NCBI GenBank assembly: GCA_964351975.1
Contig: CAYGPK010000001.1
Location: 85,270 to 149,269 of the forward strand
DNA length: 64,000 nt
Reading direction: 5' to 3'
From: an uncultured Methanosarcinales archaeon
GTDB lineage: Archaea > Nanobdellota > Nanobdellia > Woesearchaeales > UBA583
Made by a program: the position numbers and the translations under genes. The notes beneath the pieces were generated by a model. The model was given only the letters and a program-made list of their open reading frames with translations, did no database searches and was not told the DNA's origin. Below, piece after piece: positions 14,064 to 59,926 of the stretch (positions within the stretch are counted from its first letter, which is position 1; each line of letters begins with the position of its first letter).

Positions 14064-14098
14064 GTAATTTTATAAAATGAGAGTGGTTAAAGGTTAAT

Positions 14099-15504: not shown

Positions 15505-15889
15505 TTTTTTTAGCTTTTTTATCCATTCTAATTCCTTTTAGAGTTGAGCTTGTTTTTAGTGTTTTAATTTTAATACTACAACTTCCAATATTTTGAATTA
15601 GTGCTAAAACTCCAATTAATTTATCTTTTGATTTAGTACTAACTTTAATAATTATTTCTTGTTTTTCAAAGTCAAATTTATCTCTAAGTAACCAAATTCC
15701 AGATTTTCCTAATTCAACAACTCCAAGATATTTTATTAATTCTTCAATTAAATTTTCAGATAATTCTTTAAAATCAAACTGTTTGCTCGATTCAATTTTT
15801 AGTAAAACAAACCTTTTTTTCTGTCTAAGCGTTGGACTTAAAACTTTAAGTTTTGAATCAGCGAGTGTTGTTTTACTATTTTTTTGCAT
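15491..15889 (-). CDS. RNase P protein subunit Pop5-like
   Basis: RFVLLKIES...LIEELIKYLG...IKVSTKSKDKLIGVLALI...TLKTSSTLKGI fits the Pop5/Rpp14 family pattern (KRY-lvfe...fGe...SGTlk). Confidence 0.5.
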   Translation of the reverse strand: MQKNSKTTLADSKLKVLSPTLRQKKRFVLLKIESSKQFDFKELSENLIEELIKYLGVVELGKSGIWLLRDKFDFEKQEIIIKVSTKSKDKLIGVLALIQNIGSCSIKIKTLKTSSTLKGIRMDKKAKKNEQA

Positions 15890-23966: not shown

Positions 23967-25193
23967 GTGGCTACAATAGATCCTTTAATGATTGGCATTG
24001 TGATAATTGCATTTTTTGCAGTTTCAATGACTCTTCTTCTTAAATATTTTAAAATGCCTTCAGTTGTTGCTTATATAATAGGAGGTGTTGCAATGGGGTC
24101 TTATGGATTTAATCTTATTCCTAATTCTAATTTTGTAACTCAATTAGGTTCTTTAGGTGTTCTTTTTCTTCTTTTTTTTATTGGAATGGAATTTGATTTA
24201 AAAAAAATAATCTCAAATTGGAAGATTACAGTTTTCGGAGTATTTTTTAAAGTATTATTTACTTTGATTTTTTTTATAGTATTGAGTTATTTTTTTTTAG
24301 GTTGGCCTTTCGGAAGATTAATATTCATTAGTTTTGTTTTAAGTATAAGTAGTACAGCAGTTGTTTTGAAAATTCTACAAGAAAGAAATGAACTTGATAC
24401 TTTAGTTGGTTCAAATGTTGTTAGTGTTTCTTTAGTTCAAGATATTGCAACAATTCCAATGATTGTTATTTTAAGCTTTTTTAGTTCAGAAGGAGTTGAG
24501 GCATCAAAGTTATTTTTACAAATTATAGGTGGGATGTTATTTATTGCAACTTTAATATTTCTAATAAAGAAAAAAAATTTTTCAATACCATTTGGAAAAC
24601 ACTTTAAAGATGATAATGATGTTCAATTTTTTGTTGCTCTTTTGTTTTGTTTTAGTTTCGGGATTATAAGTTTATTATTTGAACTCTCAGCAACACTAGG
24701 GGCTTTTTTAGCAGGATTAATTATTTCTGCAGGTAAAGAAACTAGTACTTTCAAATCAAATTTACATCCATTTTATATTTTATTTATGGCTTTATTTTTC
24801 ATTTCAATTGGACTTTTGATTGACTTACTTTTTATGTATGAAAATTTTAAAGTAATTATTTTTTTAGTTCTTTTCGTATTTCTCATCAACACACTTATTT
24901 ATGCAGTTATATTTAGATTGTTTAAAAGAAGATGGAAAACTAGTTTTTATGCAGGAGCATTGTTATCAAATATAGGAGAATTTAGTTTTGTACTCGCTGC
25001 AATAGGGCTTGAGGGTGGGATTATTTTTAATTATGGATACCAGATGACTATTGCAGTTATATCTTTATCATTACTTTTAAGTCCACTTTGGATTTATTTA
25101 ATAAAATATGTTATTGATTTTGATAACCTAAAACTTTCAGTTTTAAAAATTCCTAAAATTTCAAGAATTAGAAAATCCAAAATTAAAAATTAA
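23967..25193 (+). CDS. cation:proton antiporter (CPA2/Kef-type), paralog 1
   Basis: MPSVVAYIIGGVAMGSYGFNLI N-terminal Kef/NapA-type motif and ~12 TM segments. Confidence 0.75.
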   Translation: MATIDPLMIGIVIIAFFAVSMTLLLKYFKMPSVVAYIIGGVAMGSYGFNLIPNSNFVTQLGSLGVLFLLFFIGMEFDLKKIISNWKITVFGVFFKVLFTLIFFIVLSYFFLGWPFGRLIFISFVLSISSTAVVLKILQERNELDTLVGSNVVSVSLVQDIATIPMIVILSFFSSEGVEASKLFLQIIGGMLFIATLIFLIKKKNFSIPFGKHFKDDNDVQFFVALLFCFSFGIISLLFELSATLGAFLAGLIISAGKETSTFKSNLHPFYILFMALFFISIGLLIDLLFMYENFKVIIFLVLFVFLINTLIYAVIFRLFKRRWKTSFYAGALLSNIGEFSFVLAAIGLEGGIIFNYGYQMTIAVISLSLLLSPLWIYLIKYVIDFDNLKLSVLKIPKISRIRKSKIKN

Positions 25194-25237
25194 TCTTTTT
25201 AATTAGTTTTATAAACATATAAATTTAGTCTCATATT

Positions 25238-26485
25238 ATGGTAGGTTTAGATCCAATTATTTCTGCAACAGCAATTATAGCATTAGTTATTGTAATTGTT
25301 AGTATAATTTTAAAAGTATTAGATATGCCTTCAGTTGTAGGTTATATTTTGGCAGGAGTATTACTAGGATCTTACGGTTTTAATTTTATTACAAATATTG
25401 ATTTTATTACTCAATTAGGTTCAATTGGTGTTTTACTTTTATTATTTTTTATTGGAATGGAAGTTGATATAAATAAAATTATTTCTAATTGGAGAATTGC
25501 GGTTTTTGGAGTTTTATTGAAAATTTTTTTAACATTATTAATAATATTTGGGCTTAGTTATTTGTTTGTAGATTGGACTTTAGAAACAATAATTTTGATT
25601 AGTTTTGTTTTAAGTATAAGTAGTACTGCTGTTGTTTTGAAAATTTTACAAGATAGTAATGAGATGGAAACAAAAGTTGGTGCTAATGTCATTAGTATTT
25701 TAATTGTACAAGATATTGTTGTTATTCCAATGATTGTTATTTTGAATTTATTTAGTCCTGAACCATTAAGTACTTCTGAATTATTCTTACAATTAGTAGG
25801 AGGATTTTTATTTATTGCAACTTTGGTTTACATTTTAAAAAAAAAAGAAATCAAATTACCTTTTGGAAAATATATTAAAAAAGATACCGAAGTTCAATTC
25901 TTTATTGCACTTTTGTTTTGTTTTGGTTTTTCAGTATTTAGTGCTTGGTTTCACTTATCAGCAACTTTGGGAGCATTTTTAGCAGGAATACTAGTTTCAG
26001 CTGGAAAAGAGACTAGTTGGTTCAAAGAGAATTTACATCCATTTTATATTTTATTTATGGCTTTATTTTTCATTTCAATCGGTCTTTTAATTGATATTGA
26101 TTTTTTAATTGAAAATATTAATATTATCGTATTTTTACTTTTATTTACATTTTTGATAAATACTATTTTATATTATTTTATTTTCAGATTATTTAAAAGA
26201 GGCCCAAAAGCAAGTTTATATGGTGCAAGTTTACTTTCTCAAGTTGGAGAATTTAGTTTTATACTTGCAGCAGTTGGTCTTGCAAACGGTATGATTTTAA
26301 ATTACTCTTATCAAATTTCAATATTAGTAATTTCTTTATCATTATTATTTAGTCCACTTTGGATTGGTATAATTAAATATTTGATTGGTTTTGATAAGAT
26401 GAGATTAGTAAAAATCAAATTTCCAAATACTAAAAATTTAAAAGATAAGTTGAAATTTAAATCTGGAAAGAAAGCTGAGAGTTAG
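25238..26485 (+). CDS. cation:proton antiporter (CPA2/Kef-type), paralog 2
   Basis: Collinear with the previous gene (MPSVVGYILAGVLLGSYGFNFI ... HPFYILFMALFFISIGLLID identical blocks). Confidence 0.75.
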   Translation: MVGLDPIISATAIIALVIVIVSIILKVLDMPSVVGYILAGVLLGSYGFNFITNIDFITQLGSIGVLLLLFFIGMEVDINKIISNWRIAVFGVLLKIFLTLLIIFGLSYLFVDWTLETIILISFVLSISSTAVVLKILQDSNEMETKVGANVISILIVQDIVVIPMIVILNLFSPEPLSTSELFLQLVGGFLFIATLVYILKKKEIKLPFGKYIKKDTEVQFFIALLFCFGFSVFSAWFHLSATLGAFLAGILVSAGKETSWFKENLHPFYILFMALFFISIGLLIDIDFLIENINIIVFLLLFTFLINTILYYFIFRLFKRGPKASLYGASLLSQVGEFSFILAAVGLANGMILNYSYQISILVISLSLLFSPLWIGIIKYLIGFDKMRLVKIKFPNTKNLKDKLKFKSGKKAES

Positions 26486-30101: not shown

Positions 30102-30776
30102 ATGAGTAAGAAAGTAGTTTTAATGGAATTTGAAAGTAATCCTAATGTTGGGCTTTATATGTTTGCAAATGATAAATTTTGTCTTTTAGGATGTGAAGTA
30201 GATTCAGCGAAGAAAAAAGAGATAGAGAGTGTTTTAGGAGTTAAGGTTTATACTGTTACAGTACTGGGTACAGAGCTTGTAGGAGTTTTTGTTTCAGGTA
30301 ATAATGAAACTTTAGTAATTCCAGAGATGTTTGATTATGAGAGAAAAGTAATTGATAATATTTGTCAAGAATATGGTGTTAAATTACTTGTTATGGATAA
30401 TAAAATTAATACTTATGGAAATAGTATGTGTATGGGTAAAGAAGAGATTTTAATTAATTCAGATTATGATTTAGATTTTGTTAAGAAATTGAAAAAAAAG
30501 ACAGAATTGGAAGTTCACAAAATTAAAAATAAAGAATTTAAGGCAACAGGGGGGGTAATTAGATTTTTAAATGGAAAATATTATGCTTCTCAAGATTTAG
30601 AGAAAGAAGATGTTAAAGTTGTTTTAGATAAAATAGCAGGAGTTGGTAGTGTTAATTCTGGAGCTAGTTTTGTATCAAGTGGAATTGTTGGTAATTCAAA
30701 TGGACTTATTTTAGGTTCAATGTGTTCAACTGTTGAAATTCAAGATATTGTTGAGAGCTTAGATTATTTAGATTAA
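30102..30776 (+). CDS. eif6: translation initiation factor 6 (aIF6)
   Basis: 224 aa with repeated V/I-G-x-F pentein-like units (NPNVGLYMFAN, GTELVGVFVSGNNETLVIP). Confidence 0.75.
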   Translation: MSKKVVLMEFESNPNVGLYMFANDKFCLLGCEVDSAKKKEIESVLGVKVYTVTVLGTELVGVFVSGNNETLVIPEMFDYERKVIDNICQEYGVKLLVMDNKINTYGNSMCMGKEEILINSDYDLDFVKKLKKKTELEVHKIKNKEFKATGGVIRFLNGKYYASQDLEKEDVKVVLDKIAGVGSVNSGASFVSSGIVGNSNGLILGSMCSTVEIQDIVESLDYLD

Positions 30777-41626: not shown

Positions 41627-42160
41627 ATGAAATTAAATCCGAAGTATTCTTATGAGTTTAACTGTGTATTAAACTCAAATTATGATGAGAGCGAGCAAAT
41701 TAAAAATTTTACTTCATTAATTACTGACAAAGATAGATTTTTGATTTTATTACCTTTGTTAAACCATAATAGAGAGTTAATTGAGAAAGGTTTAGGTTAT
41801 ACTTTACCTGAAAATTTAGATTTTTTTATTGTAAGAGGTGAATTATTCAAATCATTTTCTGAGCCTATTACAGTTGAGTATTCAATTTTACCCGAGGAGA
41901 TGTTTTTATTTTTATTTAAAGAAATTTTGAAAGTTACCATCACTGATAGGTTTTTATCTGAGGAGTTAAGGGAGCAATATATTAATTCATTTATAGATTA
42001 TGTCTGTGTTAATGGAGAATTTGGAAAAAATGATTTTGTTAAGTTTACAAAAAATTTACATGATGAGAGTAAGAGACTTTTTCCAAATTATGAATTTAAA
42101 GAATATGATTTTTCAAATAAAACAATGCTGGATTATATATCAGAGATGTACGAAAACTAA
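41627..42160 (+). CDS. hypothetical protein
   Basis: Its stop is 2 nt from the start of lgt, so the two are probably co-transcribed. Confidence 0.4.
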   Translation: MKLNPKYSYEFNCVLNSNYDESEQIKNFTSLITDKDRFLILLPLLNHNRELIEKGLGYTLPENLDFFIVRGELFKSFSEPITVEYSILPEEMFLFLFKEILKVTITDRFLSEELREQYINSFIDYVCVNGEFGKNDFVKFTKNLHDESKRLFPNYEFKEYDFSNKTMLDYISEMYEN

Positions 42161-42162
42161 AA

Positions 42163-42903
42163 ATGGTTGACCCTGTTGCTTTTTCAATATTTGGCCTTGA
42201 AATTTATTGGTATGGTTTAACTTATGCAATAGGTTTTTTAGTTTCTTATTTTTTTATTATGCACTTTGGAAAAGCAATTGCCAAAAGAGAGATTTTAGAA
42301 GATTTATTTTTTTATTTTATGATTTTTTCAGTTTTAGGAGGAAGAGTCTTTGAAATTATTTTTTATGATTTAAGTTATTATTTAGCTGAGCCTATAAAAA
42401 TATTTTACGTTTGGGAAGGAGGGATGAGTATTCACGGGGGATTTTTTTTTGGAATGATTACTCTTTGGTATTTATGTAGAAAGTATAAAGTTGATTATTT
42501 AAAAATTTGGGATTTATTTTCTATTCCAACTGCATTAGGTCTTTCTTTTGGAAGACTTGCAAATTTTGTTAATCAAGAATTAGTTGGTAAAGTTACAACC
42601 TCTAATTTAGGGATAGTTTTTCCTTTATACGACAATCAAAATCGTTGGCCTACTACAATTTTTGAGAGTGTTAAAAATATGGCAACTTTTCAAATTATTT
42701 TGTATTTGAGCTTTTTTAAAAGTTTAAAACCTGGGATTTTAACAGCTTGGTTTTTTATATTATATGATTTTGGAAGATTCTTTATTAATTTTTTACGTGA
42801 ACCAACAGTTAGTTTAGGTTTTATTTCAATGGGGCAATTTTTATGTTTGATTTTTGGATTCTATGGAGTTTGGATGTTGTATAAGATTAACAAAAAAAAT
42901 TAA
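42163..42903 (+). CDS. lgt: prolipoprotein diacylglyceryl transferase
   Basis: GRLANFVNQELVG matches the Lgt signature G-R-[LIV]-[GA]-N-F-[LIV]-N-x-E-[LIV]-x-G exactly. 7-TM topology. Conserved YW..Y and HGG motifs. Confidence 0.8.
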   Translation: MVDPVAFSIFGLEIYWYGLTYAIGFLVSYFFIMHFGKAIAKREILEDLFFYFMIFSVLGGRVFEIIFYDLSYYLAEPIKIFYVWEGGMSIHGGFFFGMITLWYLCRKYKVDYLKIWDLFSIPTALGLSFGRLANFVNQELVGKVTTSNLGIVFPLYDNQNRWPTTIFESVKNMATFQIILYLSFFKSLKPGILTAWFFILYDFGRFFINFLREPTVSLGFISMGQFLCLIFGFYGVWMLYKINKKN

Positions 42904-42913
42904 TTGAATTTAT

Positions 42914-44797
42914 TTAATTTAATATTTTTTCTTTTAGAAATAATCTAATAAATGCTATGCTTCCAAATATATAAAATATAGCTGTGAAGAAGAATCTTAT
43001 TATTTCTAAATTATTTAATGTAGTATTTTGTTTTAAGCCTATTATTGGCTTTATAATTTCAATTAATTCTGCTTGATTGATTTGTTTATCAAAAACATTT
43101 GAATTATTTTCTAATTGGTATATGAACATCACATTGCCTTTTTGAAATTTAAAATCTTGATAATCTTTTGAATTTTCAAAATAAATATTTTCTAGATTTT
43201 TAATATTGTACTTTTTTGTTGTATCAATGTTTTCTAAATTAAATAATATATATTCTGATTTAATATCCTTTAATGGAGTTAACTTAAGATTATAATAATT
43301 TGATCCAATTGAGATAGTTTCATATTTGTCAATCTCATCATTTTTGATTTTATTACTTAAATCATTATATTCAGTTTCACCTTTAACTTGATCATTTAAA
43401 GTAAATTTTTCTTGAATAGTTGTAGTTTGGAGTTTTGCTATACTAAAGAAAAACATACTAATATAGATTATAAAAAAGATTAACGCTATTGTTGGCATTA
43501 ATTTGTATTTGATTATTTTTGAATTTGTATTTTTTAATGTATAATAAATCCCAATTGAAACTATTAAACTTAAAACTAAAAAAGTTATCGTACTTAGCAT
43601 AGTTGTATTTGTTATTTGAGTTATAGTTTGATGAGTATTAAAATTTACACCAATTATTTGAGAGTTATCAAGCGCGGAGTTTATAGTTATATTTGGATTT
43701 AAATCAGGAATTAAAAACAATGATAAGTAAAGTATGCTTACAGTTAGAAATATATATTTTACTAAATCAGGGCTATGAGTTTTGTTATTGGTTATGAATT
43801 TGTAGAAATAATAAAATGGTCCAAGCATTACTAAAAAATAGAATAGAATAGTTGTCATATAACTTACTAGAATAGTTAAAATTAACAATGGATTATAATT
43901 TGCAATTGTAAAATCTAGATAAATTTGTGAGAATTGATAATTAAATATATTAATTAATGGAGTGTTTATTGATGAAGCGTATAGAGCGTTCGGATTTCCC
44001 AATAAATATGGTATTAAATAAACTCCTATGTCAACAATTAGATGAATAGTTAATATTAATGATGTTCCAATTAGAAATGTTTTTTTGTTTGAAAATTGAT
44101 TAATTAAATTTTGATAAAAATTATTTCCAGTATTTGAAATTGTTCCAAGGTATTTTTCTGTATTTAATTTAGTGTGTTTATGGAGATATTTGATTATATA
44201 ATAAATTAAACCTATTACAAGTATTACTGAATCTACAGCAAGTGCAAACCACTCCATAAAGAAATTAAATACTATTAAACTAAAGAAGGTTAGAGTAAAG
44301 ATTAGTATTATATATTCTCCTCCTACAAATTTTATATATCCTTTCAGATTAAAACTTCCAATAAGAGAATCTTTTGTTGCCACATATTTTTTTAGAGAAT
44401 AAAATGAAATAAAAATTATTATTATAAGTCCTATTATGAAGAGTGTTTGTTCAAAAGTTGTTATTTCTTTTATATTTTGAAAGAATTTAATTATAAACTC
44501 GAAAATTAAGAAATTTGATTTTTGAGTTGATTCAAGATGAACATATAACACTATTGATTTTGTAATTGTCATTAATGAGAATGCTAAAAGTAGAATTAAA
44601 TCAATTATTTTATCCCTTGTTCCTAAAAATATTTTGGTGAAACTACTTTTGTAAAAGATATAACCAATAATTGTCCAAGAAAGAAGTTTCTTAAAAAAAT
44701 CAAAGTCTCCTTGTAAATATCCAAGAAAATCAAAGACATTTAGAAGGATGAATATTATAAAATATACTTGTAAAAGTATTTTTTTAGGAATTTTCAT
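42914..44797 (-). CDS. large polytopic membrane protein, unknown function
   Basis: 627 aa with >12 hydrophobic segments plus a soluble domain. No STT3 WWDYG motif. Confidence 0.45.
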   Translation of the reverse strand: MKIPKKILLQVYFIIFILLNVFDFLGYLQGDFDFFKKLLSWTIIGYIFYKSSFTKIFLGTRDKIIDLILLLAFSLMTITKSIVLYVHLESTQKSNFLIFEFIIKFFQNIKEITTFEQTLFIIGLIIIIFISFYSLKKYVATKDSLIGSFNLKGYIKFVGGEYIILIFTLTFFSLIVFNFFMEWFALAVDSVILVIGLIYYIIKYLHKHTKLNTEKYLGTISNTGNNFYQNLINQFSNKKTFLIGTSLILTIHLIVDIGVYLIPYLLGNPNALYASSINTPLINIFNYQFSQIYLDFTIANYNPLLILTILVSYMTTILFYFLVMLGPFYYFYKFITNNKTHSPDLVKYIFLTVSILYLSLFLIPDLNPNITINSALDNSQIIGVNFNTHQTITQITNTTMLSTITFLVLSLIVSIGIYYTLKNTNSKIIKYKLMPTIALIFFIIYISMFFFSIAKLQTTTIQEKFTLNDQVKGETEYNDLSNKIKNDEIDKYETISIGSNYYNLKLTPLKDIKSEYILFNLENIDTTKKYNIKNLENIYFENSKDYQDFKFQKGNVMFIYQLENNSNVFDKQINQAELIEIIKPIIGLKQNTTLNNLEIIRFFFTAIFYIFGSIAFIRLFLKEKILN

Positions 44798-44848: not shown

Positions 44849-45718
44849 ATGCTTGATTTTAAGAATCTTTTCAAATTAGAAGAAAGACTTGTATTTTTCA
44901 TGAATTTTATTTTTGTTTTAATAGTTATTTTTTCTTTATTGTATAATATTTCTCTTAGATATTTTTTTTATTTTAATATAATTACAACTTTTGTTGTTTC
45001 ATATTTTTTCTTTAAAAGATCAAGAAAACTCGCTAAACAACTAATTGTTACGAATTTATTTATATTTTTTTATTTTTTATATCCACAAGTAGCTTGGTTT
45101 TTATCAGAAATTTTCTCAGCACAGAGTTATATTTTTATTATAGCATATAATGTTATTATAGCCTATATTTTTTTAATATTTTCAGGAAATCAAAAGAACT
45201 TATTGGGGAATTTTAATAGATTTCATTTAGGGGTTTTATTTTGTATTGCTTTGTTAGGTATGGTTTTTGGACTTCTTTTTAATTTAGTTAAAGAACCAGT
45301 TCCGAGTTTGTTTGTTAATTTTGCATCAGGAGAGTTAGCTAGTGTTTTCATTTTTTTAATTTTTAGCTCTTTTGCGGTTGCTTTTTCAGAACAAATGATT
45401 TTTTCGGGATTTTTATTTAATACTTATAGAAGTTTAACTTCAAAGTATGACGCATTTTATCAAGTTTCATTAATATTTGTTTTGTTTCATTTACTTAGAT
45501 TTGAAATACTTGTGAAACATTATTTTACTAATTTTACTAATTGGTATTTAGTTTTCATTACTTGTTATTATTTATTATTGTTTGTATTTATGCTACTTTG
45601 TCTTTATTTTTATTCTTTTAAATATAAGAAATATGAAGGTAATTTTTTATATCCTGTAATTTTTCATTTTATGGCAGATTTAGGATTATTCATATTCTAT
45701 ATAATTGGAGCTGGGTAA
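44849..45718 (+). CDS. CPBP-family intramembrane metalloprotease (CAAX protease/Abi)
   Basis: Motifs SEQMIFSG (EExxxR-like), FVLFH (FxxxH) and HFMAD (HxxxD/N). Confidence 0.55.
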   Translation: MLDFKNLFKLEERLVFFMNFIFVLIVIFSLLYNISLRYFFYFNIITTFVVSYFFFKRSRKLAKQLIVTNLFIFFYFLYPQVAWFLSEIFSAQSYIFIIAYNVIIAYIFLIFSGNQKNLLGNFNRFHLGVLFCIALLGMVFGLLFNLVKEPVPSLFVNFASGELASVFIFLIFSSFAVAFSEQMIFSGFLFNTYRSLTSKYDAFYQVSLIFVLFHLLRFEILVKHYFTNFTNWYLVFITCYYLLLFVFMLLCLYFYSFKYKKYEGNFLYPVIFHFMADLGLFIFYIIGAG

Positions 45719-45728
45719 TTTGGAATAA

Positions 45729-46478
45729 ATGTTTGAGACTTTCATTTTTAATTCAGAGAAAAACTATTCTTTTTTTAGAGTTTTTTTAGGATGTTTTTTT
45801 TTAACTCTAATTATTTCAATCTTAAATTCATTTTTAGGGGGAGATTTTTTATTTCTAGTTGCTTTGGTTTCTTTAGGTTTATCTTATCCAGTTATTAATT
45901 TTATTTTAGATTTTAGTAAAGTTGAACTTGAGACTCAGATGAGAGCAAAAATTTTATTTTTAAGACATGAGAGAGAAATGATTGTTTTTTTAAGTTTATT
46001 TTTAGGTGTTAGTTTAGGATTTTTTTTATCTAGTTTTTATTTTATTTCTGATTTTTCATATCAGGAAAAATTTGTCGATTTGATTAGTGGAAGTTTTTTG
46101 AATTTAGAGAGTTCTTTTTTTACTATCTTATTAAATAATTTAATTGTTGGTTGTTTTACTTTTTTGATTAGTATGTTTATATTTTCAGGATTTATTTTTA
46201 TTTTAGTTTGGAACGCATCTATTTTGAGTTATTTTATTTATAGTTTAAAGAGTACAAGTTCTATGTTTATTTCTTTTGTTTCTATTTTACCTCATCTTTT
46301 ATTTGAGATAGGAGGATTTATTTTAGCAGGATTCGCAGGATCAGTTCTTGCTTACAAATTTTATAGAAAAGAAAAGTATGGACATAATTTTAACAATGAA
46401 TTTTTCAAGGATTTAATAATACTTATTTTTATGTCGTTTGTTTTTATTTTAATTGGAGCTTTAATTGAAGTTTTGTGA
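45729..46478 (+). CDS. SpoIIM-like/DUF95-family membrane protein
   Basis: LPHLLFEIGGFILAG resembles the DUF95 'PHGxxE' signature. 10-nt gap after the CPBP protease gene. Confidence 0.4.
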   Translation: MFETFIFNSEKNYSFFRVFLGCFFLTLIISILNSFLGGDFLFLVALVSLGLSYPVINFILDFSKVELETQMRAKILFLRHEREMIVFLSLFLGVSLGFFLSSFYFISDFSYQEKFVDLISGSFLNLESSFFTILLNNLIVGCFTFLISMFIFSGFIFILVWNASILSYFIYSLKSTSSMFISFVSILPHLLFEIGGFILAGFAGSVLAYKFYRKEKYGHNFNNEFFKDLIILIFMSFVFILIGALIEVL

Positions 46479-50248: not shown

Positions 50249-51145
50249 TTGTTTTATTTTATGAGAAAAGTTTTAATAATTTTATTTATACTTTTAGGAC
50301 TTATTTTTAGTTCTTGTTCAGGTGGATTGAATTTTGGAGGAAGTAAGACTGATTATCCTGATGAAGTTAAAAGTGGAAATGGTCTTAAAATTAATTTTAA
50401 TATTGATGATAGATGGATAAAGGCAGGAAAATTACAATATGAAATAACATTAAAAAATGAAGGAACTGATGAAATTAAACTTTCAAAAGATAATTTTGTT
50501 TTAAGTGTTGATACGACTCAGAGTGTTTTTGTTCCTAGTTCTTTAGAAGAGTTTTATAATAGTATATTAGAGGGGGGAGATTTAGTTTTATATCCTAGTC
50601 AAGAGAGAAGTTCTGGTGGGGCTTTAGAGTTTGAACCTAATTTTTTAGAAGATAGAGTTTTACCCGATTTTAATTTAATTTTAAATGTCAATTATGATTA
50701 TACTACAAAGTTTGATAGTAGTGTTAGTTTAAGAAGAGAGAGTGGAATTTGGAAATTAGGTCAAGATAATTCTAACCAAGCAGCTCCAGTTAAGATAGAT
50801 AAATTAGAACTTATGCTTGATAAAGGAAATAACTATTTTTTAATTTTTTATTTTAGAGATGTTGGTCAAAATGGAGGTTTACTTTCAAATAATGTTTTAA
50901 TTAATATTGATAATTTTAATGCTAATTTAGGAACAGGTTCACTTAGTTGTGTTCCTTCTTATTATGATGGAAAATATTTTACTTCGGCTAATGGTTATAT
51001 TATTAACTCAGAAAAAGATGATTTGGTTGCAAGATGCAGTATTTCACTAGGAGATGTTTCAGATTATACTACTAAAGTTGTTTCAACTTTTGATTATAAT
51101 TATAAGATGAGATTTAATGAGAAGATTACATTTCCTAAAAATTGA
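50249..51145 (+). CDS. secreted putative lipoprotein (lipobox-like LIFSSC), paralog of 11157..12035
   Basis: Signal peptide MRKVLIILFILLGLIFSSCSGG. Architecture similar to the 11157 gene. Confidence 0.5.
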   Translation: MFYFMRKVLIILFILLGLIFSSCSGGLNFGGSKTDYPDEVKSGNGLKINFNIDDRWIKAGKLQYEITLKNEGTDEIKLSKDNFVLSVDTTQSVFVPSSLEEFYNSILEGGDLVLYPSQERSSGGALEFEPNFLEDRVLPDFNLILNVNYDYTTKFDSSVSLRRESGIWKLGQDNSNQAAPVKIDKLELMLDKGNNYFLIFYFRDVGQNGGLLSNNVLINIDNFNANLGTGSLSCVPSYYDGKYFTSANGYIINSEKDDLVARCSISLGDVSDYTTKVVSTFDYNYKMRFNEKITFPKN

Positions 51146-51246: not shown

Positions 51247-51897
51247 ATGAATGTTAAAGATATTGAGAAAAAAGTAAAAGAAGTTCGAGCAAACTCTAAA
51301 AAGAGAGGTTTTCCTCAAACTTTTGATTTGATTTTCAACCTACAAAATATGGACTTGAAAAAGCCAGACCATAAGGTTGATGTTGGAGCTGTGTTATACA
51401 CACAAGTTAAAACTAGCAAATTTAAGATTTGTGCTATTATTGATCATAGTGTTTCTGGTGCTGATGAAGTATTTGATAGAGTTTTATTTAATGATGAACT
51501 TGCTGCCCTTAAAGGTAATATGAAAGAAATTAGAAAAATTACTCAAGGTTATGATAAATTTGTTGTTCAAGCAAATCATATGCCTTTATTTGCTCAAATT
51601 TTAGGTAGATACTTAGGACCTATGAATAAAATGCCTTCTCCAAAATTAGGTATGATTATTACAGCTAAAACTCCTCTTGATGATTTATATAGTAAATTAC
51701 AAAAGACAGTTCATTTACAAACTAAGAAAAATTTAGTTATTCAAGCAAGTGTTGGTTCAGAAAAAGAATCAGATAATAATGTTGCACAAAACATTGTTCA
51801 TATTTATGAGACAATGCTTCATGCACTTCCAGCACAAAAGAATAATATCAAAGATGTTAGCTTAAAGCTTACTATGGGTAAGCCTGAGGTGTTATAA
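51247..51897 (+). CDS. rpl1: 50S ribosomal protein L1
   Basis: L1-family pattern (RGFPQTFDLIFNL...GRYLGP). Leader with a GGAGG Shine-Dalgarno. Confidence 0.9.
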   Translation: MNVKDIEKKVKEVRANSKKRGFPQTFDLIFNLQNMDLKKPDHKVDVGAVLYTQVKTSKFKICAIIDHSVSGADEVFDRVLFNDELAALKGNMKEIRKITQGYDKFVVQANHMPLFAQILGRYLGPMNKMPSPKLGMIITAKTPLDDLYSKLQKTVHLQTKKNLVIQASVGSEKESDNNVAQNIVHIYETMLHALPAQKNNIKDVSLKLTMGKPEVL

Positions 51898-51898
51898 A

Positions 51899-52912
51899 AT
51901 GGCAATTGATAGTACTTATAAATCCAAAGTAAATCCTAGAAATAAAGAATTTGCAGATAAGATTAGAAATTTATCTAATAAATATTCAATTGTAGGTATT
52001 GTTGATGTTTCAGGTTTACCTGCACCACAATTTCAAAGAATTAGATCAAAAGTTAAAAAAACAGCAGAAGTTTTAATTGTAAAGAAAAATTTAATTGAAA
52101 TTGTTTTAAAGGAACTTGAAACTAAGTTTAAAGGTATTAGTGACTTAATTTCTAAAACTTCAGGAGTTGTAGGACTTGTTTTTACTAATGATAATCCTTT
52201 TACTTTATATAAATTTGTTAAAAAGAATAAATCAACAGCACCTGCTAAAGCAGGTCAAATTGCACCAAATAATATTGTAGTTCCAGCAGGACCAACTAGT
52301 TTTGCACCTGGGCCAATTATTGGTGAGTTAGGAGCTTTAGGAATTAAAGCAGGAATTACAGCGGGTAAAGTTGAAATTAAGGCAGACTCAGTTGTTGCAA
52401 AAGAAGGAGATGAAATATCAGCAGCTCTTGCTGGAGTTTTATCCAGACTTGGTATTGAACCTATGGAAGTTGGTTTAAATATTAAAGCTATTTATGAAGA
52501 AGGAACAATTTATGGAAGAGATATTTTAGATGTTGATTCAGATGCAATTCTGGCAGATCTTATAGGTGCTGCTAGTGATTGTTTCAACTTAGCTTTAGGA
52601 TTGCATTATCCAACTAAGGAGAACGTATCATTGTTAATTGGTTCTGCAGCGAGAGATTCTCTTGGTTTAGGAATTGGTGTTGCATATCCTGCTGCTGAGA
52701 CAATTAAGCAATTAATTACTAAGGCTGAGTCTCAAGGTTATGGGGTAGCATTATCCCTACCAGAAGATAACAGGCCTGCTGGGTTTGCTGTTAAATCAGC
52801 ACCAGTAGCAGAAAATAATAATGTTTCTGCTAATGAAGAGTCAAAACCAGAAGATAAAAAAGAAGAAGCTCCTGCAGCAGACATGTCTGCTGGCTTTGGA
52901 GGACTTTTTTAA
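51899..52912 (+). CDS. rplP0: 50S ribosomal protein L10 (acidic P0)
   Basis: Archaeal P0 with an Ala/Glu-rich C-terminus ending ...MSAGFGGLF. Confidence 0.9.
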   Translation: MAIDSTYKSKVNPRNKEFADKIRNLSNKYSIVGIVDVSGLPAPQFQRIRSKVKKTAEVLIVKKNLIEIVLKELETKFKGISDLISKTSGVVGLVFTNDNPFTLYKFVKKNKSTAPAKAGQIAPNNIVVPAGPTSFAPGPIIGELGALGIKAGITAGKVEIKADSVVAKEGDEISAALAGVLSRLGIEPMEVGLNIKAIYEEGTIYGRDILDVDSDAILADLIGAASDCFNLALGLHYPTKENVSLLIGSAARDSLGLGIGVAYPAAETIKQLITKAESQGYGVALSLPEDNRPAGFAVKSAPVAENNNVSANEESKPEDKKEEAPAADMSAGFGGLF

Positions 52913-56992: not shown

Positions 56993-58906
56993 ATGGTAAA
57001 AATCCTAGATGAAATTATGAAAGAATTACCTCAAGAAGAGGTTAGTTCTGTTGAATTTGAAGGTGCAAACATTGTTGTTTACACGAAAAGTAAAGACTTC
57101 CTATTTAAAGGAAGAGCAAAGATAAAACAAATTGTTTCTATCTTTAAAAAAAGAATTGAACTACGTGCTGACGCAAGTATTTTAATGAAAGAAGAAGATA
57201 CGCAGAAAGCAGTAAAAGAGATTTTAAGCGATGTTGAAAATTTAGAATTTAAATTTGATTCTGCAAGATCAAGATTGACTTTAGAAGTTGATAATGTTGG
57301 TGCTGCTGTTGGTAAAGAGGGTTCTAATTTGAAAGAAATTCAGAAAAGAACAATGTGGACTGTTGTTGTAAGGAGAATTCCTCCTATTAGATCAAAAACT
57401 GTTGATGCTATGCGTGCTGTTGAGTTTCAAGAATCAGAGTATAGAAGAAAATTTTTGAATAAAGTTGGTAAGAGAATTTATGGAGGTTGGAACAAAGGAA
57501 AGATTAAAGGCTGGTCAAGAGTTACTATGCTTGGAGCTGGAAATCAAATAGGTAGAAGTTCTATTTATTTACAAACAACTGAGAGTAGAATTTTATTTGA
57601 TTGTGGAATTGATCCAAGTGTTCCTTTGGGTGACCCCGCGGAATTTCCTTATTTAGATTCTCCAGATTTTAAGTTAGAAGATGTTGATGCAGTAGTTTTA
57701 TCACATGCACATATGGATCATTGTGGTTTACTTCCTTATTTATATAGGGTAGGATATAAAGGTCCTATTTATTGTACTGAGCCAACGCGTGATATTATGG
57801 CTCTTTCCCAATTAGATTTTATTAAAATTATGGGACAAACTCAAGCTGAGAGTGTTTTATATAAAGCTGAAGATGTTAAAGAGATGATTAAACATGTTAT
57901 TACACTTGATTATGGAAGTGTGACAGATATTACTCCGGACATTAGATTAACATTTTATAACAGTGGGCATATTTTAGGTAGTGCATTTTGTCATGTTAAT
58001 ATTGGTAATGGTATGCATAATTTCATGTATACAGGAGATTTTAATTATTCTTTTAAACAAAGATTACTTGATAGGGCTGTTACTGAATTTCCAAGACTTG
58101 AGAGTATTATGATGGAAAATACAAGTACTGGTTCTAAAGATATTTCAATGTCTCGTGAAGATGCTGAAGAGGAACTTCTTAAAATTTTAGTTGATGCTTA
58201 TGTAAATAAAGGAAAAGTTATTATTCCAGTTTTTGGTGTTGGACGTTCACAAGAAATGCTTCTGGTTATTGAGAGTTTAATTTCTCAAGGAAGATTACCT
58301 AAAGATATTAAAGTTTATGTTGATGGAATGGTTTATGAAGTTACAGCAATTCACACAGCTTATCCTGAATTTTTAAATAGGCAATTAAGAAGTAGAATTT
58401 TGCGAGGGGATAATCCTTTTACAATTGAGAATTTTAAAGCAGTAGGTTCTCATAAAGAGAGAGAAGCAATTTTTGAGAGTAATGAGTGTGCAATTGTTCT
58501 TGCAACATCAGGTATGCTTAATGGTGGAACTTCACTTGAATATTTTAAACAATTCGCACCTTATGAAAATAATGCAATTGTTTTTGTTGGTTATCAAGCA
58601 AGAGGAACTTTAGGACGTCGTGTTAAAGATGGTGAGAAGGAAATCTTATTATCTAATACTGGAAGTTCTGATGATAGAATTTCTGTTAAAATGAAAGTTT
58701 GTGAAATGAAAGGTGCATTTTCAGCTCATAGTGATTTTAATCTAACTAAGAAATTTGTTTCAAATTTATCAGTTAAACCTAAAAAAGTGATTTTAAATCA
58801 TGGTGAACCTGCTAAGCTTGCTTCATTTTCAGAAGTTGTTAAAAGAATTATTCCGGGTGTTAAAACTTATACTCCTGAGAACTTGGAATCAATTAGATTG
58901 AATTAG
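56993..58906 (+). CDS. archaeal CPSF1-type beta-CASP ribonuclease with N-terminal KH domains (aCPSF1/FttA)
   Basis: KH-like N-terminus. Metallo-beta-lactamase HAHMDHCG. Length 637 aa is typical of aCPSF1. Confidence 0.85.
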   Translation: MVKILDEIMKELPQEEVSSVEFEGANIVVYTKSKDFLFKGRAKIKQIVSIFKKRIELRADASILMKEEDTQKAVKEILSDVENLEFKFDSARSRLTLEVDNVGAAVGKEGSNLKEIQKRTMWTVVVRRIPPIRSKTVDAMRAVEFQESEYRRKFLNKVGKRIYGGWNKGKIKGWSRVTMLGAGNQIGRSSIYLQTTESRILFDCGIDPSVPLGDPAEFPYLDSPDFKLEDVDAVVLSHAHMDHCGLLPYLYRVGYKGPIYCTEPTRDIMALSQLDFIKIMGQTQAESVLYKAEDVKEMIKHVITLDYGSVTDITPDIRLTFYNSGHILGSAFCHVNIGNGMHNFMYTGDFNYSFKQRLLDRAVTEFPRLESIMMENTSTGSKDISMSREDAEEELLKILVDAYVNKGKVIIPVFGVGRSQEMLLVIESLISQGRLPKDIKVYVDGMVYEVTAIHTAYPEFLNRQLRSRILRGDNPFTIENFKAVGSHKEREAIFESNECAIVLATSGMLNGGTSLEYFKQFAPYENNAIVFVGYQARGTLGRRVKDGEKEILLSNTGSSDDRISVKMKVCEMKGAFSAHSDFNLTKKFVSNLSVKPKKVILNHGEPAKLASFSEVVKRIIPGVKTYTPENLESIRLN

Positions 58907-58943: not shown

Positions 58944-59606
58944 ATGATTATTCCTCAAAAACTTGAAAAATTAATATTACAAGAGAGATTTAATATTGGG
59001 TCTTTTTCAAATAGTGATATTGAAATGGATATAGGGGGTAATTTTTATTGTGATGGTTCAAATGAGTCCCATTCTTTTCCTTCTTTTTTTAAAAAATCAG
59101 ATGGAGCATATCAAATTCATTTGATAACTGAAGGTTTAGAAAGAGGTTTAGCTATAGCTGGACTTAGTTTTGATATTGATGAAGATTTAGAAATAGTAAA
59201 AGTTCTTCAAATTCAAGGTTTAGTTGATAAAGAATATTTTAAAGAATATTTAGATTTACTTAAAGAAGTAGATTGGAAAAAATTACTTTTAAGTTATATG
59301 GTGTCTTTGTCAAAAAAATTAAATGCAGCAGAGATTTCTGTTCAAGGGTATAGAAATAATTTATCTGTTGGAGAAACTTATGAGTTTGTAAGGGAAGTCG
59401 GAGAAAAAGTAGATTTTAATAATTTTTTAGTTTTTTCAAATAGAAAGATGAGAAAGTTAACAGATTCAATTTTAATTTCTAGTGATGATCCAAATAAAAG
59501 CTACCATTTATGGCCAAAAAGAGCATATCAAATTTATGATCAAACGGCTTTAGATTTAGGATTTTCTCCAGATGGAAATGGAGATTATGTTTTAGATTTA
59601 AAATAA
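58944..59606 (+). CDS. hypothetical protein
   Basis: 220-aa ORF. No motif. Confidence 0.4.
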   Translation: MIIPQKLEKLILQERFNIGSFSNSDIEMDIGGNFYCDGSNESHSFPSFFKKSDGAYQIHLITEGLERGLAIAGLSFDIDEDLEIVKVLQIQGLVDKEYFKEYLDLLKEVDWKKLLLSYMVSLSKKLNAAEISVQGYRNNLSVGETYEFVREVGEKVDFNNFLVFSNRKMRKLTDSILISSDDPNKSYHLWPKRAYQIYDQTALDLGFSPDGNGDYVLDLK

Positions 59607-59746
59607 ATTTATCAAAAAACCTCAGTTCCTTTTTAAAGGTTATTATGCGATTTCTTTCACACTTATTCTAAGCTACAATAAGCTTTATAAACCAATTAAC
59701 GTTATTTTATAGTTATGCCGTTTGCATTAAGCGGTGTTTGATTGGT

Positions 59747-59820
59747 GGGCCTGTAGCTCAGTCCGGTAGAGCATCGCCCTTGCAAGGCGGGGGCCTCGGG
59801 TTCAAATCCCGGCGGGTCCA
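59747..59820 (+). tRNA. tRNA-Ala (anticodon UGC)
   Basis: Acceptor stem GGGCCTG/CGGGTCC including the G3:U70 Ala identity pair. Anticodon loop CTTGCAA. T-loop TTCAAAT. No encoded CCA. Confidence 0.9.
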
Positions 59821-59926
59821 TTGAGTGTGCAGTACTTGAGATTATCTCGAGTGCGAAGAACGGAAGAAATGTTTACATTTCTAATGAGGTTAAATTTGAA
59901 TCTGTAGTAAAAATATAGTGTATTTG
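59821..59926 (+). other. 5' strand of the 23S rRNA processing stem (pairs with 62747..62816)
   Basis: 59888..59926 (ggttaaatttgaatctgtagtaaaaatatagtgtatttg) is complementary to 62747..62779. 59821..59829 (ttgagtgtg) pairs with 62808..62816. The stem begins immediately after tRNA-Ala. Confidence 0.7.

What the first reader, a model, noticed from the sequence alone, without database searches (positions are those of the whole stretch)
42163..42903. Canonical bacterial-type Lgt in an archaeal context, together with two lipobox-like (FSSC) secreted paralogs.
The ORF carries the exact Lgt signature GRLANFVNQELVG and the expected 7-TM layout. Elsewhere the window is clearly archaeal (P0/P1 stalk, aIF6, Pop5, aCPSF1). 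Two secreted proteins, 11157..12035 and 50249..51145, have signal peptides ending ...LLFSSC / ...LIFSSC with Cys at the predicted +1, which is lipobox-like. Lgt homologs are not normally part of archaeal lipoprotein biogenesis. This looks like a horizontally acquired bacterial diacylglyceryl-modification pathway, a trait that could matter for an episymbiotic surface. No Lsp (signal peptidase II) is visible in the window.
Basis: partly seen in the sequence, partly recalled or inferred. Interest (0 to 1): 0.55.

Follow-up and report, generated by a model that had tools for sequence, protein, structure and literature searches.

The report
Bacterial-type Lgt fixed in DPANN archaea
A small-genome (DPANN) archaeon carries an intact copy of Lgt, the bacterial enzyme that lipid-anchors secreted proteins, together with matching target proteins, although recent papers state that archaea have no Lgt.

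Summary
ORF 42163..42903 is a full-length Lgt: Pfam PF01790 E=2.6e-60, and TIGR00544 scores 162.9 bits against a 118.9 cut-off. All essential residues are present, and the AlphaFold model matches only E. coli Lgt 5AZB.

The contig is archaeal. It carries an archaeal 23S rRNA, aIF6, P0/P1, Pop5 and aCPSF1. The gene's GC equals that of its neighbours, and two independent assemblies reproduce the locus.

It is not a one-off. More than 100 homologues form a DPANN (Woesearchaeota/Nanoarchaeota) clade with the catalytic residues conserved. They share a conserved block: an unknown 177-aa cytoplasmic protein, then lgt, a polytopic membrane protein and a CPBP/Rce1-like protease.

The two "FSSC" proteins are distant paralogs (hhalign 97.5%). 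All 14 available family members keep a signal peptide ending [LF]-S-[GSA]-Cys.

No Lsp was found in the window or in 760 kb of related loci; the rest of the genome could not be searched.

A second archaeal lineage has lgt, then a lipobox thioredoxin, then Lit. This argues for ester-type lipid donors.

Two papers (Nat Commun 2025; mBio 2026) state that Lgt is absent from archaea. NCBI already labels such MAG proteins as Lgt, so this is a new member of a known family, of moderate-to-high interest.

The parts
42163..42903 (+). lgt: prolipoprotein diacylglyceryl transferase homologue, 246 aa, 7 TM, short head segment
   Evidence: PF01790 E=2.6e-60. TIGR00544 162.9 bits, above the 118.9 cut-off. 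Aligns to 5AZB with E=2.6e-26. AF2 model vs 5AZB: E=5.9e-14, TM 0.79. Residues equivalent to E. coli Y26, R73, H103, D129, R143, N146, E151, G154, Y235, R239 and R246 are present.
41627..42160 (+). up177: 177-aa cytoplasmic protein of unknown family. It forms an operon with lgt: its stop codon is 2 nt before the lgt ATG.
   Evidence: Sequence. A homologue lies directly upstream of lgt in the clade-A loci that have upstream flank (17 loci, 15 of them distinct), including the deep members L087 and L091. The family has 138 proteins; the few that carry an organism name are all Woesearchaeota/Nanoarchaeota, and none has a Pfam domain. AF2 pLDDT 95.4, with no significant PDB or BFVD fold match.
42914..44797 (-). 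big627: 627-aa polytopic membrane protein, convergent with lgt, conserved neighbour of unknown function
   Evidence: Present at the same position and orientation in L003, L004-6, L010, L012, L015, L019 and L022. No Pfam or PDB sequence match. Its ~450-aa membrane domain has 386 representatives, some fused to giant FG-GAP/Ig-like proteins.
44849..45718 (+). CPBP/Rce1-like intramembrane protease homologue, divergent from big627, conserved neighbour
   Evidence: PF02517 28.9 bits, above the 22.4 cut-off. Conserved next to big627 in 8 lineages. Invariant E181, F210xxxH214 and H273xxxD277; the canonical EExxxR motif reads SEQxxF.
45729..46478 (+). SpoIIM-like membrane protein. It is adjacent in the window and L003 only, so linkage to lgt is weak.
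   Evidence: PF01944 E=8.7e-14. Found only in the window and L003. SpoIIM (arCOG01994) is a reported neighbour of AliA in other archaea (PMC12462473).
11157..12035 (+). Predicted Sec lipoprotein, 292 aa, signal peptide MIKKNKLIVLFLVLFGLLFSS|C
   Evidence: All 9 family members keep [LF]-S-[GS]-C at the same position.
50261..51145 (+). Predicted Sec lipoprotein, 294 aa from the ATG (the listed ORF starts at a TTG at 50249), signal peptide MRKVLIILFILLGLIFSS|C. Distant paralog of 11157..12035.
   Evidence: Syntenic orthologues in L012 (LILSG|C) and L015 (FIFSS|C). Paralogy supported by hhalign 97.5%.

Best explanation
The ORF is a functional Lgt. An ancestor of a DPANN lineage (the named relatives are Woesearchaeota / GTDB Nanoarchaeota) acquired it from bacteria, and it has been inherited vertically since.

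Proposed mechanism, by analogy with bacterial Lgt (inferred): Sec-exported preproteins have a signal peptide ending in a lipobox, [LF]-S-[GSA]-C. Lgt binds them in the membrane and transfers the glyceryl-lipid moiety of a phosphatidylglycerol-type lipid onto the Cys thiol as a thioether. This anchors the protein to the cell surface. The two ~290-aa paralogs in the window are such substrates.

I commit to a bacterial-type, ester-linked diacyl phosphatidylglycerol as the more likely donor, either scavenged or partly self-made. The reasons are that the whole bacterial active site is unchanged, and that a neighbouring archaeal Lgt lineage couples lgt to Lit, an enzyme that needs an ester-linked acyl chain. 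This donor assignment is inference, at roughly 55:45 over archaetidylglycerol.

Removal of the signal peptide must be done by something other than a recognisable Lsp near lgt. The enzyme works in a conserved setting: it is translationally coupled to a clade-specific cytoplasmic protein (up177). In the core clade it sits beside a polytopic membrane protein and a CPBP-family protease.

Shown: identity, fold, conserved residues, archaeal host, clade, synteny, conserved lipobox Cys. Inferred: activity, donor lipid, roles of the partners, direction of transfer.
For: Family identity: PF01790 E=2.6e-60; TIGR00544 above its curated cut-off; 5AZB is the only PDB sequence hit and the only significant fold hit.

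Functional constraint: the six residues called absolutely required in E. coli (Y26, H103, R143, N146, G154, R239; PMC13251419) are kept in at least 98% of 122 clade sequences that are only ~50% identical overall.

Archaeal host and not an artefact: the archaeal 23S rRNA and markers lie on the same contig. The gene's GC equals that of its neighbours. Two independent Logan assemblies reproduce the locus.

Clade: 139 homologues were found. The few of the top ~100 that carry a source name are all Woesearchaeota/Nanoarchaeota. Relatives sit next to archaeal genes: FEN1 and V_ATPase_I in CP060218; the S17-L14-L24-S4e-L5 operon; FEN1, RIO1 and the PolD small subunit; L15e. NJ bootstrap is 60% for the clade. 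Known archaeal sequences separate from known bacterial ones in 194 of 200 replicates.

Synteny: the up177-lgt pair holds down to 40% Lgt identity. The block with big627 and CPBP is present in all 8 core lineages that have enough flank.

Substrates: the lipobox Cys is invariant in 12 database homologues and 2 syntenic orthologues, while the flanking sequence varies.

Donor lipid: lgt-Trx lipoprotein-Lit clusters occur in the archaeal loci L026, L037 and L077. The window has a patatin-like phospholipase. A ketoacyl synthase and an acyl-activating enzyme lie upstream of lgt in L090. Bacterial-type GpsA, GlpK, PlsC and PlsY are reported sporadically in Woesearchaeota/DPANN (PMC6431249).
Against: There is no biochemical evidence of any kind.

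No Lsp was found in the window or in 760 kb of loci, so a complete bacterial pathway is not demonstrated.

The window has no Lit and no lipid-synthesis gene. Known DPANN take archaeal ether lipids from archaeal hosts (general knowledge), which would favour an archaetidylglycerol donor.

E. coli E243 is replaced by N or D.

The phylogeny is neighbour-joining on a sample biased towards the query. Support is moderate, and at least one probably bacterial sequence (P0112) falls among the archaeal ones. The donor lineage and the number of transfers are therefore unresolved.

Only 2 lipobox proteins occur in 64 kb.
Confidence: 0.78

Rival explanations
1. Same enzyme, archaeal donor. The archaeal Lgt has adapted to transfer archaeol (diphytanylglyceryl) from archaetidylglycerol. 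This would give the thioether-archaeol Cys known from haloarchaeal lipoproteins, and would replace AliA functionally.
For: Haloarchaeal lipoproteins carry thioether-linked archaeol, and AliA/AliB perform that step (PMC12462473). That paper notes archaeal genomes with many predicted lipoproteins but no AliA/AliB. AliA's reported neighbours, inositol monophosphatase and SpoIIM, also lie next to lgt in CP060218 and in the window and L003. This hints at replacement in place. Characterised DPANN use host archaeal lipids (general knowledge).
Against: The active-site residues are indistinguishable from bacterial Lgt, although the archaeal glycerol backbone has the opposite stereochemistry. Lit next to lgt in another archaeal lineage needs an ester-linked chain. 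The IMPase and SpoIIM adjacency is confined to one and two lineages respectively. Presence or absence of AliA in these genomes could not be tested.
Confidence: 0.35
2. Bacterial contamination or a chimeric assembly: the lgt segment does not belong to the archaeal genome.
For: Lgt is otherwise a bacterial hallmark. One related contig (L003) is filed under a Methanosarcinales MAG, which shows that binning errors occur.
Against: GC is uniform across the window, and the lgt GC has z=-0.19 against neighbouring genes. The same up177-lgt-big627 arrangement was assembled independently in two runs. Gene order is conserved in at least 8 further lineages, including a closed 1.54-Mb Woesearchaeota chromosome. 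lgt is 750 bp from a tRNA gene and lies 8-17 kb from the archaeal L1/P0/P1 genes and the archaeal 23S rRNA on the same contig.
Confidence: 0.02
3. Vertical relic. Lgt predates the archaeal-bacterial split or was present in early archaea. It survives in some DPANN, and AliA is its radically rearranged descendant elsewhere.
For: PMC12462473 considers that AliA may have originated from Lgt. DPANN are sometimes placed deep in the archaeal tree. Several distinct archaeal Lgt lineages exist.
Against: The distribution is patchy and restricted to some DPANN. The archaeal sequences are 35-43% identical to ordinary bacterial Lgts. In the NJ tree rooted on E. coli they nest beside low-GC bacterial sequences such as L021 rather than outside Bacteria. 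DPANN genomes are known to hold many bacterial xenologues (general knowledge).
Confidence: 0.07
4. Repurposed enzyme. The homologue is active but no longer lipidates proteins, for example acting in lipid remodelling, and the conserved Cys has another role.
For: The head segment is short, 18 residues vs 40 in E. coli. There is a novel cytoplasmic operon partner of unknown function. No Lsp is seen.
Against: The short head is shared with the nearest bacterial Lgts. Lipobox proteins with an invariant Cys co-occur. In L026, L037 and L077, lgt sits immediately beside a lipobox protein and Lit.
Confidence: 0.06

Closest known systems
Bacterial prolipoprotein diacylglyceryl transferase Lgt (E. coli Lgt, PDB 5AZB/5AZC; PF01790, TIGR00544)
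   Same: The sequence family, the signature motif G-R-x-[GA]-N-F-x-N-x-E-x-x-G, all essential residues, and the 7-TM body with an arm hairpin. It co-occurs with signal peptides ending in L/F-S-G/S/A-C.
   Different: The host is an archaeon. The head segment is 18 rather than 40 residues, although the nearest bacterial relatives share this. E243 is N or D. The gene is translationally coupled to a clade-specific 177-aa cytoplasmic protein not seen next to lgt in the bacterial loci fetched here. No Lsp is detectable nearby. The donor lipid in an archaeal membrane is unknown.
AliA/AliB (arCOG02177/arCOG02178), the archaeal lipoprotein lipidation components of Haloferax volcanii (PMC12462473, PMC13631571)
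   Same: The same proposed step, thioether lipidation of the lipobox Cys of Sec/Tat substrates in an archaeon. Some of the same kinds of gene neighbours occur sporadically (inositol monophosphatase, SpoIIM).
Lit, lipoprotein intramolecular transacylase of Firmicutes (PF07314)
   Same: Found directly downstream of lgt and a lipobox thioredoxin in the archaeal loci L026, L077 and L037 (E=1e-23 to 9e-26, full profile length). A second bacterial lipoprotein-maturation enzyme is therefore present in DPANN.
   Different: Not present in the window or in its own clade's loci. It belongs to a different archaeal Lgt lineage (39-42% Lgt identity).
CPBP / Rce1 family intramembrane proteases (PF02517; M. 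maripaludis Rce1)
   Same: The conserved neighbour 44849..45718 matches the family above threshold. It keeps the Glu, FxxxH and HxxxD motifs.
   Different: The EExxxR motif is SEQxxF. Its substrate is unknown. Any role as a substitute for signal peptidase II is pure hypothesis.

Membership tests
Lgt (PF01790 / TIGR00544) | Full-length profile match above the curated thresholds | tested here: met
   PF01790 204 bits vs 24.9, covering 1-239 of 240 positions. TIGR00544 equivalog 162.9 bits vs 118.9.
Lgt (PF01790 / TIGR00544) | Signature motif G142-R143-L-G-N146-F-I-N-G-E151-L-W-G154 (E. coli numbering) | tested here: met
   The window has G130-R-L-A-N-F-V-N-Q-E-L-V-G142. R, N, N, E and G are invariant in 54- and 39-sequence alignments.
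Lgt (PF01790 / TIGR00544) | Residues absolutely required in E. coli: Y26, H103, R143, N146, G154, R239 (PMC13251419) | tested here: met
   Window Y17, H91, R131, N134, G142 and R205. They are kept in 120-122 of 122 clade sequences.
Lgt (PF01790 / TIGR00544) | Seven-TM body with arms, fold of 5AZB | tested here: met
   AF2 pLDDT 92.5, a hairpin at residues 5-15 plus 7 long helices. Foldseek vs 5AZB: E=5.9e-14, prob 1.00, TMq 0.79, the only hit below 1e-3.
Lgt (PF01790 / TIGR00544) | Extracytoplasmic head domain | tested here: inconclusive
   The segment between the equivalents of G154 and R195 is 18 residues vs 40 in E. coli. It is equally short in the nearest bacterial sequences. The literature describes small heads in many bacteria.
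Lgt (PF01790 / TIGR00544) | Catalyses transfer of diacylglyceryl from phosphatidylglycerol to the lipobox Cys | not testable with these tools
   Needs an enzyme assay, complementation or mass spectrometry.
Bacterial lipoprotein pathway (Lgt-Lsp-Lnt/Lit) | Lipobox-bearing substrates encoded in the same genome | tested here: met
   Two ORFs in the window. The Cys is invariant in 14 of 14 family members.
Bacterial lipoprotein pathway (Lgt-Lsp-Lnt/Lit) | Signal peptidase II (Lsp, PF01252) present | tested here: not met
   No PF01252 hit among the window ORFs scanned with Pfam. The custom LspA HMM (E. coli, P. aeruginosa and S. aureus sequences) gave nothing better than E=0.1 in the window plus 89 loci, 760 kb in total. 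Whole genomes could not be searched, so absence from the genome is not shown.
Bacterial lipoprotein pathway (Lgt-Lsp-Lnt/Lit) | N-terminal modification enzyme (Lnt or Lit) | tested here: not met
   None in the window or in clade-A loci. Lit is present next to lgt in the other archaeal lineage, L026, L037 and L077.
AliA/AliB (arCOG02177/02178) | Membership of arCOG02177/8, a family with only marginal similarity to PF01790 | tested here: not met
   The ORF is a strong PF01790 member, whereas AliA reaches only 29% HHpred probability against PF01790 (PMC12462473). A direct comparison with an AliA sequence was not possible. The one unannotated 7-TM ORF in the window (15982..16872) shows no similarity to the Lgt profile.
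CPBP / Rce1-like (PF02517), for neighbour 44849..45718 | Profile match and the three motifs EExxxR, FxxxH, HxxxN/D | tested here: inconclusive
   28.9 bits vs the 22.4 cut-off. FxxxH and HxxxD are invariant. Motif 1 is S-E-Q-x-x-F, with one Glu kept and the Arg lost.

The most novel reading that the evidence does not exclude
These DPANN archaea run a hybrid lipoprotein pathway that crosses the lipid divide. A bacterial Lgt, working with the clade-specific cytoplasmic protein up177, attaches an ester-linked diacylglyceryl lipid scavenged from a bacterial or mixed-lipid source to archaeal surface proteins. The always-adjacent CPBP/Rce1-like protease, whose family cleaves next to thioether-lipidated cysteines, serves as the missing archaeal prolipoprotein signal peptidase.
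Probability: 0.12. Interest if true: 0.88.

Novelty: new member of a known kind. Interest (0 to 1): 0.62.

Why it matters
[quoted passage not shown] The field has built the AliA/AliB pathway on that premise. The Nat Commun paper also notes archaeal genomes rich in predicted lipoproteins that lack AliA/AliB.

A conserved clade of bona fide Lgt in DPANN archaea under purifying selection offers a concrete candidate for that gap. A second lineage with an lgt-lipoprotein-Lit cluster adds to this.

It also makes an old question testable: can a bacterial lipid-transfer enzyme work in an archaeal membrane, and with which lipid (sn-1,2 ester or sn-2,3 ether)? Genes are now available to express.

It qualifies the argument that Lgt is a strictly bacteria-specific drug target. 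It adds a surface-biogenesis trait to the list of bacterial genes fixed in DPANN.

The limit is that public annotation (NCBI PGAP) already names these MAG proteins Lgt. What is new is that nobody in the searchable literature has noticed or analysed them.

Tried and rejected
1. The genome-contig scan with the single protein returned one locus only, because its peptide patterns were too specific.

2. The look-up of encoding contigs did not return the 176.7-kb NCBI contig for the window's own proteins, so the window could not be extended.

3. The Lsp search found nothing. It used a custom HMM from three LspA sequences (the E. coli sequence from memory, validated against PDB). Its sensitivity to a very divergent Lsp is limited.

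5. Pfam scans of distant big627 relatives identified only the extracellular repeats of the fusion proteins.

6. The idea that lgt replaced AliA in place was checked. IMPase adjacency is confined to the CP060218 lineage, and SpoIIM adjacency to the window and L003. It is kept only as a weak hint.

7. An exact "core-clade" bipartition defined by an identity threshold had 0% bootstrap, because three long-branch archaeal sequences nest inside it. The clade was redefined from the tree.

8. The supplementary tables of PMC12462473, which give AliA presence per genome, are not held.

9. The 7-TM ORF 15982..16872 was tested as a possible AliA-like protein against the Lgt profile, with no similarity.
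Full report
**1. The observation**

The window has an ORF at 42163..42903 (+) encoding 246 aa.
- It matches Pfam PF01790 (LGT) end to end, profile positions 1-239 of 240, E=2.6e-60.
- It exceeds the curated equivalog cut-off of NCBIfam TIGR00544, 162.9 vs 118.9 bits.
- The only related solved structure by sequence is E. coli Lgt 5AZB (E=2.6e-26).
- That alignment places window residues Y17, H91, D117, R131, N134, E139, G142, Y201, R205 and R212 on E. coli Y26, H103, D129, R143, N146, E151, G154, Y235, R239 and R246. E243 is Asn.
- An AlphaFold2 model built on 39 homologues is confident (pLDDT 92.5). It shows an N-terminal hairpin and seven long helices.
- Its only significant PDB fold match is 5AZB (E=5.9e-14, TM 0.79).

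So the ORF is a canonical Lgt by sequence, motif and fold.

**2. The host is archaeal and the gene belongs to it**

Rfam finds an archaeal 23S rRNA at 59924..62747 with 2331 bits. Pfam finds these archaeal or archaeo-eukaryotic markers:

| Marker | Coordinates |
|---|---|
| Pop5 | 15491..15889 |
| NOG1 | 9505..10572 |
| aIF6 | 30102..30776 |
| L1 | 51247..51897 |
| P0 with the archaeo-eukaryotic insertion domain | 51899..52912 |
| aCPSF1/FttA | 56993..58906 |

GC is uniformly 22-31% outside the rRNA. The lgt gene has GC 0.267 against a gene mean of 0.274, z=-0.19. Two independent Logan assemblies of different runs contain the identical up177-lgt-big627 arrangement. Contamination or chimerism is therefore effectively excluded, and the gene is compositionally fully ameliorated.

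**3. It is a clade, not a singleton**

A search of 5.8 billion proteins gave 139 homologues. About 100 of them are 48-72% identical to the query. The few of these that carry a source name are all "Candidatus Woesearchaeota", "Nanoarchaeota" or "Nanoarchaeales archaeon", annotated by NCBI as prolipoprotein diacylglyceryl transferase. One lies on a closed 1.54-Mb chromosome, CP060218.1.

More distant relatives, at 40-43% identity, also sit among archaeal genes:
- P0109 lies beside the archaeal S17-L14-L24-S4e-L5-S14-S8-L6 operon.
- P0095 lies beside FEN1, RIO1 and the PolD small subunit.
- P0094 lies beside L15e.

Others at similar identity are bacterial:
- P0107 lies beside rnpA-yidD-yidC.
- L021 carries a PBP transpeptidase and RelA/SpoT.
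- P0112 is probably bacterial.

In a neighbour-joining tree of 201 sequences, the window groups with all sequences of at least 46% identity plus P0088, P0090, P0095 and P0109. I call this clade A; its bootstrap is 60%. Sequences known to be archaeal are separated from sequences known to be bacterial in 194 of 200 replicates. The sampling is biased towards the query and the method is simple. I therefore treat "one or a few old transfers from Bacteria" as the likely reading, not a demonstrated one.

Across 122 clade-A sequences, the six residues that Legood et al. call absolutely required (PMC13251419) are kept in 120-122. That is strong evidence of purifying selection on catalysis. The extracytoplasmic head segment is short, 18 vs 40 residues in E. 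coli. The nearest bacterial sequences share this.

**4. Anatomy of the locus**

lgt is the second gene of a two-gene operon. The stop of the upstream ORF 41627..42160 ("up177") lies 2 nt before the lgt ATG. An A/T-rich, TATA-like stretch lies about 25 nt upstream of the up177 start.

Downstream, tail-to-tail, lies a 627-aa polytopic membrane protein (42914..44797, "big627"). A CPBP/Rce1-like protein (44849..45718, PF02517) is transcribed divergently from it. A SpoIIM-like protein follows.

I fetched 80 metagenome loci with an Lgt profile. I compared them, and the other loci, with the window's proteins.
- An up177 homologue lies directly upstream of lgt in the clade-A loci that have upstream flank (17 loci, 15 of them distinct). 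These include the deep members L087 and L091, with 40-43% Lgt identity.
- big627 and CPBP follow lgt in all eight core lineages that have enough downstream flank (L003, L004-6, L010, L012, L015, L019, L022).
- The genes beyond this block differ between lineages (SpoIIM, RecJ-like, GAPDH).
- None of the loci with Lgt identity of 43% or less outside clade A has any of these neighbours.

What is known about the neighbours:
- **up177** is a family of 138 proteins; the few that carry an organism name are all Woesearchaeota/Nanoarchaeota, and none has a Pfam domain. Its model is very confident (pLDDT 95.4) but has no significant match in PDB or BFVD.
- **big627** has no Pfam or PDB match. Its membrane domain has 386 representatives, some fused to giant FG-GAP/Ig-like proteins.
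- **The CPBP protein** keeps an invariant Glu, FxxxH and HxxxD. Its first motif reads SEQxxF instead of EExxxR.

The functional meaning of these partners is unknown. The conserved up177-lgt coupling is the strongest lead.

**5. The substrates**

Only two ORFs in the window combine a positively charged N-terminus, a hydrophobic core and a PROSITE-type lipobox:
- 11157..12035: ...GLLFSS|C
- 50249..51145: ...GLIFSS|C, more likely starting at the ATG at 50261

They are distant paralogs (hhalign 97.5%, E=5.5e-12 over 257 columns).

A profile search found only 12 family members in the whole database. Two more orthologues lie at the syntenic position downstream of lgt in L012 and L015. All 14 carry a Cys at the same position, preceded by LIFSS, VVLSS, LLFSS, FVFSA, IFLSG, IIFSG, LVFSS, LAFSG, LLFSG, VLFSG, LLLSG, LILSG or FIFSS. 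The consensus is [LF]-S-[GSA]-C, the classical lipobox, and the mature N-terminus varies.

**6. The rest of the pathway**

No Lsp was found. There was no PF01252 hit among the window ORFs scanned with Pfam. An HMM built from E. coli, P. aeruginosa and S. aureus LspA gave nothing better than E=0.1. It was searched against six-frame translations of the window plus 89 loci, 760 kb in total. I could not search whole genomes, so absence of Lsp from the genome is not established.

A different archaeal Lgt lineage gave an unexpected result. L026, L037 and L077 have 39-42% Lgt identity to the window. L026 and L077 are archaeal by NAC-alpha, and L077 also carries an SPP/presenilin homologue. In these loci lgt is followed by a thioredoxin-fold lipobox protein (...LILPA|C...FIIG|C). 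Next comes Lit, the lipoprotein intramolecular transacylase known from Firmicutes (PF07314, E=1e-23 and 9e-26, full profile length).

Lit moves an ester-linked acyl chain from the diacylglyceryl group to the free alpha-amino group of the lipidated Cys (established knowledge of the family). Its presence therefore implies two things in those archaea: the signal peptide is removed by some enzyme, and the lipid on the Cys is ester-linked, meaning bacterial-type.

Three further observations point the same way:
- A patatin-like phospholipase is in the window (63012..63842).
- A ketoacyl synthase and an acyl-activating enzyme lie just upstream of lgt in L090.
- Bacterial-type GpsA, GlpK, PlsC and PlsY are reported sporadically in Woesearchaeota/DPANN (PMC6431249).

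Together with the unchanged active site, this makes me favour a diacyl-PG donor. The margin is narrow, because characterised DPANN use host archaeal lipids.

**7. Comparison with what is known**

The ORF is a member of the Lgt family; every sequence- and structure-level criterion tested was met. It is not AliA/AliB, the archaeal lipidation components, which have only marginal similarity to PF01790 (PMC12462473).

The literature held here says the following:
[quoted passage not shown] No paper in the library combines Woesearchaeota with diacylglyceryl transferase. No paper discusses PF01790 in archaea other than to say it is absent. Public annotation nevertheless already names these MAG proteins Lgt. 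The finding is thus a new, unreported phyletic occurrence of a known enzyme, with a new conserved gene context.

**8. Verdict**

The best explanation is a functional, anciently acquired Lgt that lipid-anchors lipobox proteins in a DPANN lineage (confidence about 0.78). Three points remain open: the donor lipid, the signal peptidase, and the roles of up177, big627 and the CPBP protease.

Interest is 0.62. The finding contradicts explicit statements in recent specialist papers. It supplies a candidate for the lipoprotein-rich archaea that lack AliA. It makes the question of lipid specificity directly testable. Against this, the enzyme family itself is well known and the proteins are already labelled in databases.

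Noticed in passing
L026:4297-6274; L077:3304-7158; L037:1017-2468: A second archaeal Lgt lineage has a conserved cluster: lgt, then a thioredoxin-fold lipobox lipoprotein, then Lit (PF07314, lipoprotein intramolecular transacylase, E=1e-23 and 9e-26). L026 and L077 are archaeal by NAC-alpha, and L077 also has an SPP/presenilin homologue. L026 also has VKOR and a second Trx-like lipoprotein. I found no mention of Lit in archaea in the papers read.
   Followed up: partly
window 41627..42160 and homologues (P0147-P0266): up177 is a 138-member protein family of ~177 aa, translationally coupled to lgt; its few named members are all DPANN. The AF2 model is very confident (pLDDT 95.4, pTM 0.91) but has no significant PDB or BFVD fold match and no Pfam domain. 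Invariant motifs are DKDRF, VR, SFSxP, EYS and KE.
   Followed up: partly
window 42914..44797: The ~450-aa N-terminal membrane domain of this 627-aa protein has 386 representatives at E<=1e-3 and no Pfam family. In some proteins it forms the C-terminal part of 1,400-2,700-aa giants with FG-GAP or Ig/cadherin-like repeats. An invariant D23...D31-x-D33 sits just after the first TM helix.
   Followed up: partly
window 63012..63842: A patatin-like phospholipase (PF01734, E=1.8e-9) is encoded just downstream of the 23S rRNA. An ester-lipid hydrolase is unexpected in an organism with ether lipids.
   Followed up: no
window 59746..62747: tRNA-Ala(UGC) is followed by the 23S rRNA, with a protein gene (58944..59606) rather than a 16S rRNA upstream. 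The rRNA genes therefore appear unlinked. The listed ORFs 61464..61796 and 61860..62183 lie inside the rRNA and are spurious.
   Followed up: no
L003 (CAYLKB010000064.1): This 9.4-kb contig is filed under an 'uncultured Methanosarcinales archaeon' MAG. It has GC 0.249 and the full up177-lgt-big627-CPBP-SpoIIM block of the DPANN clade, so it is probably a mis-binned DPANN contig.
   Followed up: partly
L090:1681-8232: In the archaeal locus of P0109, lgt is preceded on the same strand by ketoacyl synthase (PF00109/PF02801), an Orn/Arg decarboxylase-like gene, a metallophosphoesterase, an AMP-binding acyl-activating enzyme and an AAA_18 kinase-like gene. These are fatty-acid-related genes next to lgt in an archaeon.
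   Followed up: no
window 23967..26485: Two tandem paralogous Na+/H+ exchanger genes (408 and 415 aa; PF00999 confirmed for the first).
   Followed up: no
window 13719..15175: A retropepsin-like/Zn_protease (PF05618) gene immediately precedes a RimK-type ATP-grasp ligase, the known RimK-associated pair.
   Followed up: no
window 1136..3031 and 19423..21828: A bacterial-type DNA gyrase B and a topoisomerase IA are present in this archaeal window. These are further genes of likely bacterial affinity in the same genome.
   Followed up: no
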